Shown here in pieces: positions 3,398 through 55,630 of a stretch of 64,000 bases of DNA. This DNA is from Escherichia coli. Its GTDB lineage: Bacteria; Pseudomonadota; Gammaproteobacteria; Enterobacterales; Enterobacteriaceae. Under the pieces are notes generated by a model that saw nothing but the letters and a program-made list of their open reading frames with translations, searched no databases and had not been told where the DNA came from. The stretch is taken from the NCBI RefSeq assembly GCF_013315695.1, contig NZ_CP054353.1; one strand, 5' to 3'. The position numbers and the translations under genes are program-made. Position 1 is the first letter of the stretch. The number at the start of each line of letters is the position of its first letter.

Positions 3398-4369
3398 GTG
3401 GCACAGGAATATACTGTTGAACAACTAAACCACGGCCGTAAAGTCTATGACTTTATGCGCTGGGACTACTGGGCTTTCGGCATCTCTGGTCTGCTGTTAA
3501 TCGCCGCTATCGTTATTATGGGCGTGCGCGGCTTTAACTGGGGGCTGGATTTCACCGGTGGTACGGTTATTGAAATTACGCTCGAAAAACCGGCTGAAAT
3601 TGACGTAATGCGTGATGCATTGCAAAAAGCCGGTTTTGAAGAGCCGATGCTGCAAAACTTTGGTAGCAGCCACGACATCATGGTCCGTATGCCGCCTGCT
3701 GAAGGCGAAACCGGCGGTCAGGTGCTGGGCAGCCAGGTTCTGAAGGTGATTAACGAATCCACCAATCAGAATGCGGCAGTGAAGCGTATTGAGTTCGTCG
3801 GTCCGAGCGTGGGGGCAGACCTTGCGCAAACCGGTGCGATGGCGTTGATGGCGGCGCTGCTGTCTATCCTCGTGTACGTAGGTTTCCGCTTTGAGTGGCG
3901 ACTGGCGGCAGGGGTTGTTATTGCGCTGGCGCACGACGTTATCATTACGCTGGGTATTTTGTCGTTATTCCATATCGAGATTGACCTGACCATTGTGGCA
4001 TCGTTGATGTCAGTTATCGGTTACTCGCTTAACGACAGTATCGTGGTATCGGACCGTATTCGTGAAAACTTCCGCAAGATCCGTCGCGGTACGCCTTACG
4101 AAATCTTTAACGTGTCCTTGACCCAGACGCTGCACCGCACCTTGATCACATCCGGTACTACCTTGATGGTTATCCTGATGCTGTACCTCTTCGGTGGTCC
4201 GGTACTGGAAGGCTTCTCGCTGACCATGCTTATCGGTGTTTCCATCGGTACTGCATCTTCCATCTACGTAGCATCGGCGCTGGCTCTGAAACTGGGTATG
4301 AAGCGCGAACACATGCTGCAGCAGAAAGTGGAAAAAGAAGGGGCGGATCAGCCGTCAATTCTGCCTTAA
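3398..4369 (+). CDS. secF: protein translocase subunit SecF
   Basis: 323-aa product starting [10 protein letters not shown] at an in-frame GTG; overlaps the end of secD. Confidence 0.93.
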
Positions 4370-4392
4370 GGGTGTTTTAAATCCGTTCATTT

Positions 4393-4428
4393 AAAAAACC
4401 GTGGCGTATTTGCGCTGCGGTTTTTTTT
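4393..4428 (+). terminator. rho-independent terminator after secF
   Basis: 8-bp stem (ccgtggcg / cgctgcgg, two G-U pairs) with 5-nt loop followed by T8. Confidence 0.55.
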
Positions 4429-4490
4429 CGATTGTTGATTATTTTACTGAATACAGCTTTGGTTGTAGAAAGAGTTCTGACATATACTTT

Positions 4491-4507
4491 GTATTAATAG
4501 TTAATAC
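4491..4507. promoter_or_regulatory. perfect palindrome gtattaa-tag-ttaatac upstream of the antitoxin gene; candidate autoregulatory operator
   Basis: 17-bp palindrome 14 bp upstream of the antitoxin ATG, next to a GGAG ribosome-binding site at 4510-4513. Confidence 0.4.
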
Positions 4508-4520
4508 ATGGAGATCGCTT

Positions 4521-4763
4521 ATGCGCAAAATTACCTCAGTAAGCGTTGGCGAACAATTAGATAGTTTTATTACCCGGATGGTCCAGTCTGGTCGTTATGG
4601 CTCGGCCAGTGAAGTGATGCGTTCAGCGCTTCGTCTATTGGAACAACAAGAATCCCGGGATGAAGCTGTCAGAAATGCAGTTATTGAAGGTCTTGAGAGC
4701 GGTGAAAGTTCGATGACGCTTCGTGATATCGCAGCAGAAAGGAAGCAAAAACATCGTGTATAA
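4521..4763 (+). CDS. type II antitoxin, ParD/ribbon-helix-helix family
   Basis: 80-aa product with RHH-like N-terminus and ...SASEVMRSALRLLEQQE... motif; stop overlaps the downstream toxin start by 8 nt. Confidence 0.8.
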   Translation: MRKITSVSVGEQLDSFITRMVQSGRYGSASEVMRSALRLLEQQESRDEAVRNAVIEGLESGESSMTLRDIAAERKQKHRV

Positions 4764-5037
4764 GCTTAGCGGAAAAGCTGTTGAAGATTTCAGAGGGATC
4801 TATGACTACACGCTGGGAAAGTTTGGTGAGGAGCAGGCGGATCGCTATACCGACTCTCTCGGCATTTTTTTGGATACACTCTCTCAAATGCCCGAGATTG
4901 GTCAAGACTATGATGCGATTCCAGAGGTAAAGAAGATCGCATTTAGGTTTCACACTGTTTATTACGTTATAAGAGTCGATGACATTCTCATTGCGCGCAT
5001 TCTTCATCAGCTGATGGAACCTCGCCGTCACTGGTAA
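4756..5037 (+). CDS. type II toxin, ParE/RelE family
   Basis: 93-aa product (GTG start) with ParE-like features: YKLSGKA...DF..IYDYT N-terminus, YYVIRVDDILIARILH C-terminus; start overlaps the antitoxin stop. Confidence 0.8.
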   Translation: MYKLSGKAVEDFRGIYDYTLGKFGEEQADRYTDSLGIFLDTLSQMPEIGQDYDAIPEVKKIAFRFHTVYYVIRVDDILIARILHQLMEPRRHW

Positions 5038-5124
5038 TGTGAGAATTTCTTGACTCAGGATTGCGAAAATCCCCGCATCTTGGGAAACTGCGCGTAACCC
5101 TACATTTCATCCAGGTAACTTTTC

Positions 5125-5472
5125 ATGGCTATAATCCCAAAAAACTATGCGCGGTTAGAAAGCGGTTATCGCGAAAAAGCATTAAAAATCTATCCGTGGG
5201 TCTGCGGTCGCTGTTCTCGCGAGTTTGTTTATTCCAACCTGCGTGAACTTACCGTTCACCACATTGATCACGACCATACCAATAACCCGGAAGACGGCAG
5301 TAACTGGGAGTTATTGTGTCTTTATTGCCACGATCACGAGCATTCAAAATATACCGAAGCAGATCAGTATGGTACGACCGTTATCGCAGGGGAAGATGCG
5401 CAGAAAGATGTCGGTGAAGCGAAGTACAACCCATTCGCTGACCTGAAAGCGATGATGAACAAGAAGAAGTGA
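5125..5472 (+). CDS. yajD: HNH endonuclease-family protein YajD
   Basis: 115-aa ORF with HHIDHDHTNN and CLYCHDHEH motifs; expected position. Confidence 0.9.
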   Translation: MAIIPKNYARLESGYREKALKIYPWVCGRCSREFVYSNLRELTVHHIDHDHTNNPEDGSNWELLCLYCHDHEHSKYTEADQYGTTVIAGEDAQKDVGEAKYNPFADLKAMMNKKK

Positions 5473-5473
5473 T

Positions 5474-5505
5474 AAAAAATGCCGGATATGAAATCCGGCA
5501 TTCTC
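5474..5505. terminator. bidirectional hairpin terminator between yajD and tsx
   Basis: perfect stem gccggat / atccggc with 5-nt loop, flanked by A-run and T-rich sequence. Confidence 0.6.
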
Positions 5506-5509
5506 ACAA

Positions 5510-6394
5510 TTAGAAGTTGTAACCTACTACCAGGTAACCACCCCAGCCGGTAGAGCGAACGTTGAAGTTGCCGTTGCCGAAGTTCAGTTCTGCATCGTCG
5601 TTCCACTGACCACCGTCGTGCCAGTAACGAGCTACGACAGAGTAGTGCCAATGATCGTAGTTCAGAGCCAGAATATGGCTGGAAGCGATAGAGTTATTAG
5701 TACGGGTCTTAATACCGTTGATTGCGTTACCGCTGTCATCCCCTAAATCGGAACCCCAGTCGAAGTTGGTGAAGCCGATGTAGCTCAGCTGACCGCCCCA
5801 CAGATCGGTAATCGGCACAAAGTATTTAATTTTGAAACGGTAACCGTCCCACTCGTTTTCGTTCGCTGCGCCATAGTTCTGCCACTGGTATTTCGCATAG
5901 ACGTTCATGGACAGGCTCATCGGCAGGCCAGTATCGATATCGGTACCCAGACCCATGTACCAGGTGCTCTGGCGACCATCTTTATTACGACCCATGTCGT
6001 AAATGTAGTTGTTCGCGAAGTACCACTCTTTGAACGGACCAAAGCTAAGGTCAGTATTGGTCAGCTTGTCGATGGAGAAACGTGGTTCGATTTCCATAAA
6101 CAGCGGAGAACCGTGGTTCCAGATACCTTTTGCATCGGAGTTACCGCCGAAGAATACCGGCGCATCCGCATAACCATAGAAGTCGAACCAGTCTTTTTTA
6201 GCGAATGCTTCGTACTCAAGGTAGGTATCGTTGCGGATCTGCGGTCCGAAACGGGTGTGATAGCTTCCGACAACGTTAACGCTCTGGTGCCACCAGTCGG
6301 AAAGATACTGCGGTTTGTCGTTTTCAGCTGCGTTGACAGTAAAAGACGAAGAGAGCGCCAGTACCGCACCGGCTGCCAGTAATGTTTTTTTCAT
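5510..6394 (-). CDS. tsx: nucleoside-specific outer-membrane channel Tsx
   Basis: 294-aa product starting [24 protein letters not shown]; ORF track extends 16 codons further upstream. Confidence 0.95.
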
Positions 6395-6692: not shown

Positions 6693-7099
6693 TTACTGCA
6701 TAACAGGTTGAATGTCGTGGATACGTACAAAGTCTAACTGTTCTACAGAAATCCCCTTTAACTGTAACGGAATATCAACATCGCTGGGGACGAGGACGCT
6801 GGCAGGGGCATTAATCAATTGATTCTGCAAATTGATTTCCTGAAAGTTGTCTATTGTTCCCTGAATTTGCCCATATTCAACAGTTCCGCTGAATGCGGGC
6901 AAGGGGTCATTCGACTCGCCCTGAATACGTAGCGTCAGGGTGGTGCCATCTGTATCATGCGTAATATTCACTAGCGACATACGTAAAGTACCGATCTGGC
7001 TTTCCAGTCTTGCCGGTGTTTTCGCTCCAGGCAGAAGGTAAACCCCACTGCTGGATTTTGCATTCAGCCTGTTTTGCTGAGTGATTTTGACGGTTTCTT
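6693..7099 (-). pseudogene. yajI: yajI lipoprotein gene, 3' (C-terminal) fragment separated from its 5' part by an IS insertion
   Basis: reading frame open from about 7127 to stop at 6693 (about 135 codons); no start or signal peptide; matching N-terminal piece found at 8851..8979. Confidence 0.75.
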
Positions 7100-7118
7100 T
7101 ATCCGGTGCGCCGTAAAA

Positions 7119-7138
7119 CCCCGTCCTTCAGGGCGGGG
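7119..7138 (+). repeat. left-end subterminal hairpin ccccg-tccttcaggg-cgggg
   Basis: 5-bp stem with 10-nt loop; same orientation and same loop as the right-end hairpin. Confidence 0.7.
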
Positions 7139-7159
7139 ATATAAGGCGCGGTTTTCCAC

Positions 7160-7590
7160 CTGACCAGGTGTTTGCTGTTGTTCAATGTATTGGCGGATGA
7201 CGGATATTGGCGCACCTCCGCAGCTACTGGCAAAATAGCCAGGACTCCACAAAACGCCTTTGTAGTAATACCTGACTGCAATATCTGGTCGATCTCGTCG
7301 CAGTCACCTACCCGATACGCCTTTGAGGCTGTTTACCAGACTGGATATCGCCAGTTTGGGAGGATAGTTAATTAACAAATGGACGTGATCTGGTTCGCCA
7401 TCCATTTCAACCAGTTCAGCTTCAAAATCAGCACATACATTTGAATAGTAAGTGCGTAGTTTTTCTGTCGCGTCATGGTCAAAAATCTGGCGTCGGTATT
7501 TGGGACAAAGACCAGGTGAACATGCATCAGGAAAACACAATGCCTTCCACGCCGGATATCGGTTTCTTTTTTCACAGACCAAAGTATCAT
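7160..7590 (-). pseudogene. tnpA: IS200/IS605 Y1 (HUH) transposase tnpA, inactivated by a frameshift and an in-frame TGA
   Basis: frame A gives ...HVHLVFVP, frame B gives CPKYRRQIF...DHVHLLINYPPK...LKGVSGR then TGA at 7304-7306, then WSPGYFASSCGGAPISVIRQYIEQQ in the same frame. Confidence 0.8.
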
Positions 7591-7597
7591 TTGACCT

Positions 7598-8806
7598 GTG
7601 AAACGATTACAGGCATTTAAATTCCAGTTAAGACCAGGTGGTCAACAGGAGTGTGAAATGAGGCGCTTCGCAGGCGCATGTCGTTTCGTTTTCAATCGTG
7701 CTCTGGCGCTTCAGAATGAGAATCATGAGGCCGGTAATAAATACATCCCTTACGGGAAAATGGCTTCCTGGCTGGTTGAGTGGAAAAACGCCACTGAAAT
7801 GCAATGGCTTAAAGATTCGCCCTCACAGCCATTGCAACAGTCACTGAAAGACCTTGAGCGGGCTTACAAAAACTTCTTCCAGAAGCGGGCTGCTTTTCCC
7901 CGATTCAAAAAGCGGGGACAGAATGATGCATTCCGCTACCCGCAGGGCGTTAAGCTCGATCAGGAAAACAGCCGTATTTTTCTGCCGAAACTTGGCTGGA
8001 TGCGCTACCGGAACAGCCGTCAGGTCACGGGTGTTGTGAAAAATGTCACTGTCAGCCAGTCCTGCGGTAAGTGGTACATCAGTATTCAGACAGAAAGTGA
8101 AGTATCCACTCCGGTTCACCCTTCAGCATCAATGGTCGGGCTGGATGCTGGCGTGGCTAAACTCGCCACGCTGTCAGATGGCACAGTCTTTGAGCCTGTA
8201 AACAGTTTTCAGAAAAACCAGAAGACGCTGGCGAGACTTCAGCGACAGTTAAGCCGCAAGGTCGAATTCAGCAATAACTGGCAGAAGCAGAAACGCAAAA
8301 TACAGCGACTGCATTCCCGTATCGCAAATATCCGCAGGGACTACCTTCACAAAGTCACAACGACCGTCAGCAAAAACCACGCAATGATAGTCATTGAGGA
8401 TTTGAAGGTCAGCAACATGTCAAAGTCAGCAGCGGGTACGGTCAGCCAGCCGGGGCGCAATGTCCGGGCAAAATCAGGTTTAAACCGTTCGATACTGGAT
8501 CAGGGCTGGTATGAAATGCGCCGCCAGCTTGAGTACAAGCAGCTCTGGCGTGGCGGTCAGGTGCTTGCTGTTCCGCCAGCGTACACAAGCCAGCGTTGCG
8601 CGTGCTGTGGTCATACAGCGAAAGAAAATCGCCTGTCACAAAGTAAATTCAGATGCCAGGCATGTGGATATACAGCGAACGCTGATGTAAATGGCGCTCG
8701 TAACATTTTAGCGGCGGGGCACGCCGTTCTTGCCTGTGGAGGGATGGTGCAGTCAGGCCGCCCGTTGAAGCAGGAACCCACCGAAATGATTCAGGCGACA
8801 GCCTGA
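7598..8806 (+). CDS. tnpB: IS605-family TnpB (OrfB), RuvC-like RNA-guided endonuclease family
   Basis: 402-aa ORF, GTG start; N-terminus resembles the ISDra2 TnpB N-terminus as I recall it; RuvC motifs [22 protein letters not shown] and CxxC...CxxC zinc finger all present. Confidence 0.92.
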
Positions 8807-8870
8807 ACGTAGCAGGGATCCACGTCCTTCAGGGCGTGGAGGATGTCAATGAGTTGCGTCATCTCCTGGT
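8650..8870 (+). ncRNA. predicted TnpB guide RNA (omega/right-end RNA) spanning the tnpB 3' end, the right-end hairpin and a flank-derived guide; not directly observed
   Basis: inferred from the known architecture of TnpB elements; right-end hairpin at 8820-8839 and intact tnpB upstream. Confidence 0.35.
8820..8839 (+). repeat. right-end subterminal hairpin ccacg-tccttcaggg-cgtgg
   Basis: 5-bp stem with 10-nt loop, 14 bp downstream of the tnpB stop. Confidence 0.7.
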
Positions 8871-8979
8871 TCAGTGTGCTGACGCTGTGTTTCATCTGCC
8901 GCACTTCGCTTTGCTGCACACAGGCGCTAAGGCTGAACAGGCTTCCCAGCAGGAGCAGTCGAAAAACGTTAGTATTCAT
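8851..8979 (-). pseudogene. yajI: yajI lipoprotein gene, 5' (N-terminal) fragment with signal peptide and lipobox
   Basis: ATG at 8979 then MNTNVFRLLLLGSLFSLSAC (lipobox LSAC); frame runs into the IS right end. Confidence 0.75.
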
Positions 8980-9093
8980 AGGTCGTCCCTTTCTCGTCGC
9001 AATTAGCCTAATGGTAGAGGGTAAAAGCAGTGAAAGCATCGATCCTTTATCTCAAAAGCGTTGCGCCTTTGTTGTATCGTCAGTTCAGGGTAA

Positions 9094-36974: not shown

Positions 36975-37005
36975 TTAACCATTCCCATACAATTAGTTAA
37001 CCAAA

Positions 37006-37040
37006 AAGGGGGGATTTTATCTCCCCTTTAATTTTTCCTC
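37006..37040 (+). terminator. candidate terminator after clpX
   Basis: gggggga / tctcccc stem followed by T-rich tract. Confidence 0.45.
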
Positions 37041-37049
37041 TATTCTCGG

Positions 37050-37080
37050 CGTTGAATGTGGGGGAAACATCCCCATATAC
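37050..37080 (+). promoter_or_regulatory. sigma-32 heat-shock promoter of lon
   Basis: TTGAAT at 37052-37057, 13-nt spacer, CCCCATAT at 37071-37078; matches the sigma-32 consensus. Confidence 0.65.
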
Positions 37081-37161
37081 TGACGTACATGTTAATAGAT
37101 GGCGTGAAGCACAGTCGTGTCATCTGATTACCTGGCGGAAATTAAACTAAGAGAGAGCTCT

Positions 37162-55516: not shown

Positions 55517-55630
55517 GGGGGCTCTGTTGGTTCTCCCGCAACGCTACTCTGTTTACCAGGTCAGGTCCGGAAGGAAGCAGCCAAGGCAGATGACGCGTGT
55601 GCCGGGATGTAGCTGGCAGGGCCCCCACCC
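55517..55630 (+). ncRNA. ffs: 4.5S RNA (signal recognition particle RNA)
   Basis: 114-nt sequence GGGGGCUCUGUUGGUUCUCCCGCAACGC...GGCAGGGCCCCCACCC recognised as E. coli 4.5S RNA, including the conserved domain IV motif. Confidence 0.95.

What the first reader, a model, noticed from the sequence alone, without database searches (positions are those of the whole stretch)
4393..5505. The toxin-antitoxin insertion sits between two intact terminators
The secF terminator (4393-4428) and the yajD/tsx bidirectional terminator (5474-5505) both look intact, and the parDE module with its own palindrome-bearing promoter region lies cleanly between secF and yajD. The module therefore appears to be an insulated, self-contained unit. 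Whether yajD is transcribed from its own promoter (5038-5124) or by read-through from parE is not evident.
Basis: inference. Interest (0 to 1): 0.25.

Follow-up and report, generated by a model that had tools for sequence, protein, structure and literature searches.

The report
ParDE toxin-antitoxin islet between secF and yajD
A small, already annotated ParD/ParE toxin-antitoxin gene pair sits in the gap between the E. coli core genes secF and yajD in about 8% of strains; a terminator shields it from secF, but nothing separates it from yajD, so this is an ordinary strain-variable islet rather than a sealed unit.

Summary
The features are real. The hairpin at 4393-4428, with a run of 8 T, and the hairpin at 5474-5505 are two of only six strict terminator-like sites in the 64-kb window. 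parD (4521-4763) and parE (4756-5037) are intact, overlap by 8 nt and are under purifying selection. A perfect 8-N3-8 palindrome (4490-4508) lies between a -10-like TATACT and the ribosome-binding site.

The interpretation needs three corrections.

1. The left terminator is not the K-12 secF terminator. Strains without the module (5,000 of 5,424 matching genomes) carry a different hairpin there. The module-bearing allele swaps 62 bp for 689 bp (4370-5058). Its hairpin resembles secF terminators of another Escherichia lineage and of Kluyvera.
2. No terminator lies between parE and yajD. The two terminators therefore bracket parD-parE-yajD, and read-through into yajD is expected. The conserved yajD upstream block (5059-5124) is untouched, so yajD probably keeps its own promoter.
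3. The right hairpin is a good terminator for tsx but has a poor U-tract in the yajD direction. The K-12 allele, which has a better tail, does terminate yajD experimentally.

This kind of chromosomal toxin-antitoxin islet is known. Interest is low.

The parts
3398..4369 (+). secF coding sequence. The stop codon TAA at 4367-4369 is the left edge of homology with module-free strains.
   Evidence: RefSeq annotation of identical or near-identical loci; alignment A1.
4370..5058 (+). Allele-specific block of 689 bp. It is present in 424 of 5,426 complete E. coli genomes and replaces 62 bp of K-12-type spacer.
   Evidence: The right junction is identical in all six module-bearing alleles examined.
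4393..4428 (+). Intrinsic terminator downstream of secF ('type B'). A6, 9-bp stem 4399-4420 with loop ATTT, then T8 at 4421-4428. The A-run also gives a T-run on the - strand.
   Evidence: Fold -19.3 kcal/mol, z = -5.5; strict scan. Similar secF-downstream hairpins occur in Escherichia sp. MOD1-EC7003, Kluyvera, Phytobacter and Kosakonia.
4429..4447 (+). Variable patch just after the T-run, about 17-19 nt, in two unrelated versions. Window and IAI39 have CGATTGTTGATTA(T/G)TTTA; the other module-bearing strains have (T)GCCTGTTTCACA(T/G)GCA.
   Evidence: Alignment A2.
4459..4488 (+). Candidate parDE promoter: TTGGTT (4459-4464), 18-bp spacer, TATACT (4483-4488).
   Evidence: Relaxed hexamer scan, 8 of 12 matches. 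By my reading of alignment A4, the -10 corresponds to the -10 of the plasmid homologues' TTGACA-17-TAT(C/T)AT; MAFFT itself places a gap there. Not experimentally mapped.
4490..4508 (.). Candidate ParD operator: perfect inverted repeat TGTATTAA-TAG-TTAATACA between the -10 and the ribosome-binding site GGAG (4510-4513).
   Evidence: Plasmid homologues keep the dyad with a matched change on both arms, TGTGTTGA-TAG-TTAACACA.
4521..4763 (+). parD, ribbon-helix-helix antitoxin, 80 aa.
   Evidence: PF03693 1.7e-22, TIGR02606 1.2e-27; PDB 7b22 2.9e-19; 0 nonsynonymous and up to 5 synonymous differences among six alleles.
4756..5037 (+). parE, toxin, 93 aa. GTG start overlaps the end of parD by 8 nt (GTGTATAA).
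   Evidence: PF05016 4.7e-14, covering 1-88 of 89 profile positions; PDB 7ycs, 8c24, 3kxe; RefSeq annotation with the same start; only 2 nonsynonymous changes, both in the O157 allele.
5038..5058 (+). Module-specific tail after the parE stop. No hairpin and no T-run.
   Evidence: Fold of 5020-5135 gives z = 0.0; strict scan finds nothing.
5059..5124 (+). Conserved yajD upstream block. It holds -35-like TTGCGA (5061-5066), a 17-bp spacer and -10-like GAAACT (5084-5089). A second candidate is TTGGGA-15-TACATT (5080-5106).
   Evidence: Identical across the six module-bearing alleles. Identical to the module-free strain 51489 and 2 differences from DH5alpha. Conserved across Escherichia, Salmonella, Citrobacter, Phytobacter and Kosakonia; hexamer scan.
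5125..5472 (+). yajD, HNH nuclease, core gene.
   Evidence: NF008448 5.3e-63, PF01844 1.1e-12.
5474..5505 (.). Hairpin shared by convergent yajD and tsx. Core stem 5481-5499. Tail is TTTTTTAT on the - strand (tsx) and TTCTCACA on the + strand (yajD).
   Evidence: Stem changes are compensatory between haplotypes (GCCGGAT/ATCCGGC versus GCCGGGA/TCCCGGC). The K-12-type allele terminates yajD transcripts in Term-seq and in vitro (PMC12207403).
5510..6394 (-). tsx, nucleoside channel, convergent with yajD.
   Evidence: RefSeq annotation of matching loci.

Best explanation
This is a strain-variable chromosomal type II toxin-antitoxin islet of the ParD/ParE family. It occupies the secF-yajD spacer as an alternative allele of that spacer.

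Transcription from the yajC-secDF operon stops at a strong intrinsic terminator (4393-4428) that belongs to this allele.

A sigma-70-type promoter (-10 TATACT at 4483-4488) then drives parD and parE. The two genes overlap by 8 nt and are probably translationally coupled.

The 8-N3-8 palindrome at 4490-4508, between the -10 and the ribosome-binding site, is the likely operator. ParD, or the ParD-ParE complex, would bind it to repress its own promoter.

No terminator follows parE. These transcripts should therefore run on through the intact yajD upstream block and yajD itself. They would end, less efficiently than in K-12, at the hairpin shared with tsx (5474-5505).

yajD most likely also keeps its own weak promoter inside 5059-5124. 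It would then have two inputs: its native promoter and ParDE-autoregulated read-through.

The allele spreads within E. coli by homologous recombination through the conserved flanks, not by a transposase or integrase.

Shown: sequence features, family membership, distribution, junctions, selection on the genes and discordant flank histories. Inferred: promoter use, operator binding, read-through, toxicity and the route of spread.
For: Family and integrity. All parD differences among six alleles are synonymous.

Distribution: 424 of 5,426 complete genomes carry the module, always at this locus. None of the secF-yajD loci examined in Salmonella, Kluyvera, Phytobacter, Kosakonia or other Escherichia lineages carries it.

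Junctions: homology with module-free E. coli ends at the secF stop codon and resumes at 5059. Homology with the type-B allele of Escherichia sp. MOD1-EC7003 runs through the T-run to 4428 and resumes at 5059. The right junction is identical in six alleles.

Terminators. The K-12 allele of the right hairpin is an experimentally confirmed yajD terminator (PMC12207403).

No structure between parE and yajD.

Operator and promoter.

yajD block conservation.

Recombination: window and IAI39 are nearly identical in parDE (0 and 1 differences) but differ at 12 of 348 yajD positions. O157 and IAI39 have identical yajD but differ at 5 + 7 parDE positions and in the variable patch.

No inverted repeats, transposase or integrase at the borders.
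Against: No transcript data for a module-bearing strain were found, so promoter use and read-through are untested.

The parDE -35 is weak (TTGGTT, 3 of 6 matches). The tool's own promoter scan found nothing on the + strand.

The yajD -10 candidate GAAACT matches only 3 of 6. In Buttiauxella the TTGATA block lies inside an upstream coding sequence, and in two Buttiauxella species (B. noackiae, Buttiauxella sp. B2) the spacing is also lost. Part of that conservation may therefore be a relic rather than a promoter.

No donor lineage carrying both a type-B terminator and this parDE was found. The nearest ParE outside E. coli is 66% identical.

The resemblance between type-B terminators could be partly convergent, because A-run/GC-stem/T-run hairpins look alike.
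Confidence: 0.75

Rival explanations
1. The toxin-antitoxin pair is a fully insulated cassette dropped between two pre-existing terminators. It leaves host transcription units unchanged, and yajD is expressed only from its own promoter.
For: There is a strong terminator upstream. The yajD upstream block is conserved and untouched.
Against: No terminator lies between parE and yajD. The upstream terminator differs from the one in module-free E. coli and lies inside the allele-specific block.
Confidence: 0.15
2. The whole 689-bp block, terminator included, is a mobile cassette that came from a plasmid or other element and carries its own upstream terminator as an insulator. The resemblance to other secF terminators is convergent.
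For: In E. coli the type-B hairpin is found only together with the module. Plasmid parDE homologues exist at about 69% nucleotide identity.
Against: Similarity to the plasmids starts only at about 4489, at the operator, and does not include the terminator. The 3' end of secF, the TAAGG after the stop and the hairpin align with a module-free Escherichia lineage. Kluyvera, Phytobacter and Kosakonia have related hairpins at the same place. There are no terminal repeats and no recombinase gene.
Confidence: 0.1
3. The module-bearing allele is ancestral in E. coli, and most lineages lost it by deletion.
For: Divergence in parDE among alleles (about 2%) is similar to or below that of yajD (about 3.4%). 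This suggests long residence in the species.
Against: A deletion cannot recreate the different type-A terminator, which E. coli shares with Salmonella and another Escherichia lineage. No outgroup examined has the module.
Confidence: 0.05

Closest known systems
Chromosomal type II toxin-antitoxin islets in core intergenic regions of E. coli (ccdO157 between folA and apaH; mazEF between relA and mazG; yafNO between dinB and yafP), as reviewed in PMC7167474
   Same: It is a small two-gene module without a recombinase, present in some strains only. It sits in a spacer between core genes that are intact without it. The insertion locus is plastic, with REP elements and other inserts at or near it. 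The review states that the integration mechanism is unknown.
   Different: Here the module lies between an operon terminator and the next gene's promoter rather than inside an operon. The module-bearing allele also carries a different upstream terminator from the empty allele.
ParDE systems with solved structures: Vibrio cholerae ParD2/ParE2 (7b22, 7r5a), Caulobacter ParDE1 (3kxe), M. tuberculosis ParDE1 (8c24), and entry 7ycs
   Same: Ribbon-helix-helix ParD antitoxin and ParE toxin, with the antitoxin gene first. Sequence matches: ParD to 7b22 at 2.9e-19; ParE to 7ycs and 8c24 at about 1e-7.
   Different: The relationship is distant, and no experimental work on this E. coli pair was found. 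Gyrase poisoning is assumed from the family and was not tested.
Plasmid parDE of IncX5, IncFII and other enterobacterial plasmids (for example pKPC-bca9, pRHBSTW-00452_4)
   Same: Same gene order, same 8-nt overlap layout and the same operator dyad position, with a compensated base change.
   Different: Only about 69% nucleotide identity. The plasmids have a consensus -35 (TTGACA) where the chromosomal copy has TTGGTT. The flanks are unrelated.
Bidirectional intrinsic terminators between convergent genes (K-12 yajD terminator validated in PMC12207403)
   Same: It is the same hairpin, at the same place relative to the tsx stop codon, between the two stop codons.
   Different: The window allele has TTCTCAC instead of TTTTCAT after the stem. 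It also lacks the 139-bp REP-type insert found between yajD and the hairpin in K-12 and O157.

Membership tests
Type II toxin-antitoxin system, ParD/ParE family | Antitoxin with a ParD ribbon-helix-helix domain | tested here: met
   PF03693 1.7e-22; TIGR02606 1.2e-27, score 95.7 against a cut-off of 46.2; PDB 7b22 2.9e-19.
Type II toxin-antitoxin system, ParD/ParE family | Toxin of the ParE (RelE/ParE superfamily) type, full length | tested here: met
   PF05016 4.7e-14, covering profile positions 1-88 of 89; PDB ParE entries 7ycs, 8c24, 3kxe. No NCBIfam model matched.
Type II toxin-antitoxin system, ParD/ParE family | Two adjacent co-oriented genes, antitoxin first, overlapping or closely coupled | tested here: met
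   parD 4521-4763 and parE 4756-5037 overlap by 8 nt. RefSeq annotates homologous loci the same way.
Type II toxin-antitoxin system, ParD/ParE family | Autoregulation through an operator with dyad symmetry at the promoter | tested here: inconclusive
   A perfect 8-N3-8 palindrome at 4490-4508 sits next to the -10. It is kept in plasmid homologues with a change on both arms. Binding and repression cannot be tested here.
Type II toxin-antitoxin system, ParD/ParE family | Toxin inhibits growth (DNA gyrase for ParE) and the antitoxin neutralises it | not testable with these tools
   The only support is indirect. Purifying selection on both genes argues that they are functional.
Intrinsic (Rho-independent) terminator, site 4393-4428 | GC-rich hairpin followed directly by a U-tract, just downstream of a stop codon | tested here: met
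   9-bp stem with 6 G-C pairs, followed by T8, starting about 24 nt after the secF stop. z = -5.5.
Intrinsic (Rho-independent) terminator, site 5474-5505, tsx direction | GC-rich hairpin followed directly by a U-tract | tested here: met
   On the - strand, a 7-bp GC core is followed by ATTTTTTA. Fold -19.8 kcal/mol, z = -6.1.
Intrinsic (Rho-independent) terminator, site 5474-5505, yajD direction | U-tract after the hairpin on the + strand | tested here: not met
   The tail ATTCTCAC has 3 T in 8. The K-12 allele, with ATTTTCAT, does terminate in vitro and in vivo (PMC12207403). Partial function is therefore likely but unproven for this allele.
Transposable element or integron cassette | Terminal inverted repeats, target-site duplication, recombinase gene or attC-like site | tested here: not met
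   No terminal inverted repeats and no recombinase ORF. The only candidate is a 5-bp GATTG at both junctions of the window/IAI39 allele, and it is absent from the other module-bearing alleles.

The most novel reading that the evidence does not exclude
The islet rewires a core gene. With no terminator after parE, the HNH nuclease gene yajD would gain a second promoter repressed by ParD-ParE. YajD would then be induced whenever the antitoxin is degraded or the module is derepressed. Separately, the clean junctions fall exactly at the edges of inter-genus conservation, and the flank histories are discordant. Both points suggest that such islets travel between chromosomes as spacer alleles by homologous recombination. 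That would bear on the open question of how toxin-antitoxin modules integrate.
Probability: 0.2. Interest if true: 0.35.

Novelty: already known. Interest (0 to 1): 0.13.

Why it matters
It matters little beyond annotation. The gene pair is already named ParD/ParE in RefSeq for hundreds of genomes, and chromosomal toxin-antitoxin islets in core spacers are a described phenomenon.

Three modest points are useful.
- The transcription unit in module-bearing strains, O157:H7 included, is probably parD-parE-yajD. yajD expression data from K-12 may therefore not transfer to them.
- The secF terminator exists in two unrelated forms within Escherichia.
- The junction pattern offers a simple, testable route by which such islets spread: allele exchange through conserved flanks.

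Tried and rejected
- Built-in promoter/terminator scan. It found no terminator and only one - strand promoter-like site. I treat the terminator result as a false negative, apparently because the rule pairs the A-run with the T-run.
- First terminator scan of my own. It was too permissive, with 86 merged sites on the + strand alone and many more on the - strand. I discarded it and replaced it with a strict rule.
- Global pairwise alignment with cheap gap extension. It scattered spurious matches through the insert. Only the junctions were used.
- Search for a module-free type-B allele inside E. coli, using the MOD1-EC7003 spacer as query. None was found.
- Literature searches for guessed O157 locus tags, for yajD with secF and ParE, and for a yajD promoter or start site. 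Nothing turned up on this module or on a mapped yajD start.
- Rfam. No family matched in 4300-5600. The sub-threshold hits are driven by the terminator hairpins.
- Sigma-E and sigma-32 readings of the yajD upstream block. I considered these by eye and dropped them, because the would-be -10 elements are not conserved in Salmonella or Buttiauxella (inference only).
- Weak similarity between the left arm of the K-12 terminator and 4375-4390. I noted it but judged it too short to support an insertion into the loop of the K-12 terminator.

Full report
**What the window holds.** The region is the E. coli tgt-yajC-secD-secF-yajD-tsx neighbourhood. Window 4300-5560 is 100% identical to strain MS 21-1. 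Two small genes lie between secF (stop codon at 4367-4369) and yajD (5125-5472).
- parD, 4521-4763, 80 aa. It matches Pfam ParD_antitoxin at 1.7e-22 and NCBIfam TIGR02606 at 1.2e-27.
- parE, 4756-5037, 93 aa, GTG start. It matches Pfam ParE_toxin at 4.7e-14 over the whole profile.

RefSeq annotates the same two genes with the same boundaries in related genomes. The closest solved structures are ParD2 of Vibrio cholerae (7b22) and the ParE toxins in 7ycs, 8c24 and 3kxe. This is a canonical ParDE pair.

**Are the two terminators real?** Yes.
- Positions 4393-4428 fold into a 15-pair hairpin at -19.3 kcal/mol, z = -5.5. The GC core is 4399-4420 and T8 follows it.
- Positions 5474-5505 fold at -15.0 kcal/mol, z = -6.5.

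The built-in scan reported no terminator here. This is most likely because the stem is extended through the flanking A-run and T-run, which uses up the T-tract. A strict rule of my own required a stem of at least 7 bp, at least 4 G-C pairs, a loop of 3-8, and at least 6 T in the next 8 bases. It finds only six distinct sites in the whole 64-kb window on both strands (11 nested hits). Shuffles gave a mean of one hit. Two of the six are the secF hairpin on the + strand and the tsx-side reading of the second hairpin on the - strand.

On the + strand, the yajD direction, the second hairpin is followed by TTCTCACA and fails the rule. The K-12-type allele of this hairpin has the tail TTTTCAT. It was identified by Term-seq as the yajD terminator and confirmed by single-round in vitro transcription. 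The termination point is marked directly after the hairpin in the construct sequence (PMC12207403). 'Bidirectional' is therefore experimentally true for a close allele and plausible but weaker here. The stem differs between haplotypes by compensatory changes (GCCGGAT/ATCCGGC versus GCCGGGA/TCCCGGC). That is consistent with selection for the hairpin.

**The module is an allele of the spacer, not a simple insertion into the K-12 sequence.** Of 5,426 complete E. coli genomes, 424 carry the block, always at this locus. Carriers include O157:H7, IAI39 and CE10. Aligning the window with module-free strains (DH5alpha, 51489) shows that homology stops at the secF stop codon and resumes at 5059, at GATTGCGAAAATCCCC.

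In between, module-free strains have 62 bp containing a different terminator, AAAATCCCGGTCAGAAGATCGGGATTTTTTTT ('type A'). The window has 689 bp (4370-5058), which begins with its own hairpin ('type B').

**Where the type-B hairpin comes from.** A scan of one genome per species with YajD returned 80 loci. secF and yajD are neighbours in Escherichia, Salmonella, Kluyvera, Phytobacter, Kosakonia and Pseudocitrobacter. None of these has parDE in the spacer, so the empty state is ancestral.
- Type-A hairpins occur in Salmonella and in one other Escherichia lineage.
- Type-B hairpins (AAAACCGTG...TGCGGTTTTTTTT and relatives) occur downstream of secF in Escherichia sp. MOD1-EC7003, Kluyvera, Phytobacter and Kosakonia.

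A direct comparison of the window with MOD1-EC7003 aligns the secF end, the stop codon, the hairpin and the T-run up to 4428, and then again from 5059. Relative to a type-B spacer, the module-specific DNA is therefore 4429-5058. It starts immediately after the T-run. No E. coli genome in the collection has a type-B spacer without the module.

**Junctions and spread.** The right junction is identical in six module-bearing alleles, which suggests a single origin. A patch of about 17-19 nt just after the T-run (4429-4447) exists in two unrelated versions. I cannot explain this. There are no terminal inverted repeats and no recombinase gene.

Both junctions with module-free E. coli fall exactly where sequence conserved between genera begins. 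One is the end of the secF reading frame and the other is the start of the conserved yajD upstream block. The histories of module and flank also disagree.
- Window and IAI39 are almost identical in parDE (0 and 1 differences) but differ at 12 of 348 yajD positions.
- O157 and IAI39 have identical yajD but differ at 12 parDE positions and in the variable patch.

I infer that the block moves among E. coli lineages as a spacer allele by homologous recombination through the flanks. How it first entered a type-B spacer is unknown. The nearest ParE outside E. coli is only 66% identical, and plasmid homologues are about 69% identical in DNA.

**Is the module functional and self-regulated?** Among six alleles, every parD difference is synonymous (up to 5 synonymous, 0 nonsynonymous). 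parE has two amino-acid changes, both in the O157 allele. This argues for maintained function.

Upstream of parD there is a -10-like TATACT (4483-4488) with a weak -35, TTGGTT, 18 bp away. The perfect palindrome TGTATTAA-TAG-TTAATACA (4490-4508) follows, and then GGAG (4510-4513).

Plasmid homologues have TTGACA-17-TAT(C/T)AT. By my reading of the alignment its -10 corresponds to the window's TATACT, although MAFFT places a gap there. The plasmids carry the same dyad as TGTGTTGA-TAG-TTAACACA. The A-to-G change on the left arm is matched by T-to-C on the right arm. This fits an operator for a ribbon-helix-helix dimer that overlaps the transcription start, as in other type II systems. Binding itself is inferred.

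**Is the module insulated?** Only on its upstream side. The 87 nt between the parE stop and the yajD start have no stable structure (z = 0.0) and no T-run. They are also too short, and too closely followed by a translated gene, to make Rho-dependent termination likely; this last point is inference. Transcripts from the parDE promoter should therefore continue into yajD. The two terminators bracket parD-parE-yajD.

**Does yajD keep its own promoter?** Positions 5059-5124 are identical across the six module-bearing alleles. They are identical to the module-free strain 51489 and differ at 2 positions from DH5alpha. The block is also conserved across Escherichia, Salmonella, Citrobacter, Phytobacter and Kosakonia.

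The pattern is TTG(C/A)NA, 17 bp of variable sequence, then GAAACT; here that is 5061-5066 and 5084-5089. A conserved AACCCTACATTT and CAGGTA follow. The module's right junction lies 2 bp upstream of the -35-like hexamer. This is what one expects if a native yajD promoter was preserved.

The hexamers are weak, however. In Buttiauxella the TTGATA element lies inside an upstream coding sequence, and in two Buttiauxella species the spacing is also lost. The promoter assignment is therefore tentative. No mapped yajD start site was found in the searchable literature.

**Comparison with what is known.** Chromosomal type II modules that sit in spacers between core genes, are present in only some strains and lack any recombinase are well described. 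Examples are ccdO157 between folA and apaH, mazEF between relA and mazG, and a parDE in the relA-mazG spacer of Salmonella. The review that lists them notes that such loci are plastic and that the integration mechanism is unknown (PMC7167474).

The present case is another example. The gene products already carry RefSeq family names, and I found no experimental study of this particular pair. No Rfam family matches the region.

**Verdict.**
- The module is shielded from secF.
- It is not sealed off from yajD.
- The left terminator is specific to this allele.
- The right hairpin is a good terminator mainly for tsx.

The finding is ordinary, and I score interest at 0.13.

Noticed in passing
window 6693-9039 (IS element about 7095-8850): yajI (SadB/YajI lipoprotein, DUF3251) is split by an IS200/IS605-family element of the IS609 type. 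The N-terminal piece is at 8794-9039 (-) and the C-terminal piece at 6696-6980 (-). Between them lie a 402-aa TnpB/InsQ gene (7598-8806, +) and a Y1 transposase gene broken into two reading frames (7307-7582 and 7067-7252, -). The same arrangement covers at least 80% of the query in 340 complete E. coli genomes.
   Followed up: partly
window 5472-5478, compared with L001:846-1023 and L003:1473-1650: K-12 (DH5alpha) and O157 (F3398) carry an extra 139-bp REP/BIME-type insert between the yajD stop codon and the shared hairpin. The window and strain 51489 lack it. Its presence is independent of the toxin-antitoxin module.
   Followed up: partly
window 4429-4447: A patch of about 17-19 nt directly after the secF T-run has two unrelated versions among module-bearing strains. 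In O157 it is a palindrome, TGCCTGT-TTC-ACAGGCA. In the window and IAI39 it starts with GATTG, the same 5 bases that start the conserved block at 5059. Whether that is a target duplication, microhomology or chance is unexplained.
   Followed up: partly
L014:947-2501, L016, L024 (Pseudocitrobacter): The secF-yajD spacer of Pseudocitrobacter holds a different insert, a 466-aa ORF of unidentified function in a 1,557-bp gap. This spacer therefore accepts various inserts in different genera.
   Followed up: no
loci L009-L083, 100 nt upstream of yajD: In many Enterobacterales (Enterobacter, Pantoea, Serratia, Providencia and others) yajD is not next to secF. There it is preceded by a much better -10-like element (GGGATATAAT or GGGATATATT) at the position of the E. 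coli GGGAAACTG. In Buttiauxella and Cedecea the GATTGATAAAG block is the 3' end of an upstream reading frame. The E. coli block may be partly a relic of that gene.
   Followed up: partly
window 4441-4469, - strand: The only sigma-70-like site the tool reported in 4200-5700 is on the - strand (TCTACA-17-TAAAAT), pointing towards secF. The A-run/T-run symmetry of the secF hairpin would also stop such antisense transcripts.
   Followed up: no
window 36995-37090 (-) and 55525-55621 (+): Rfam matches above the gathering score: sraA sRNA and the small SRP RNA (ffs). Both are ordinary landmarks of this chromosomal region.
   Followed up: no
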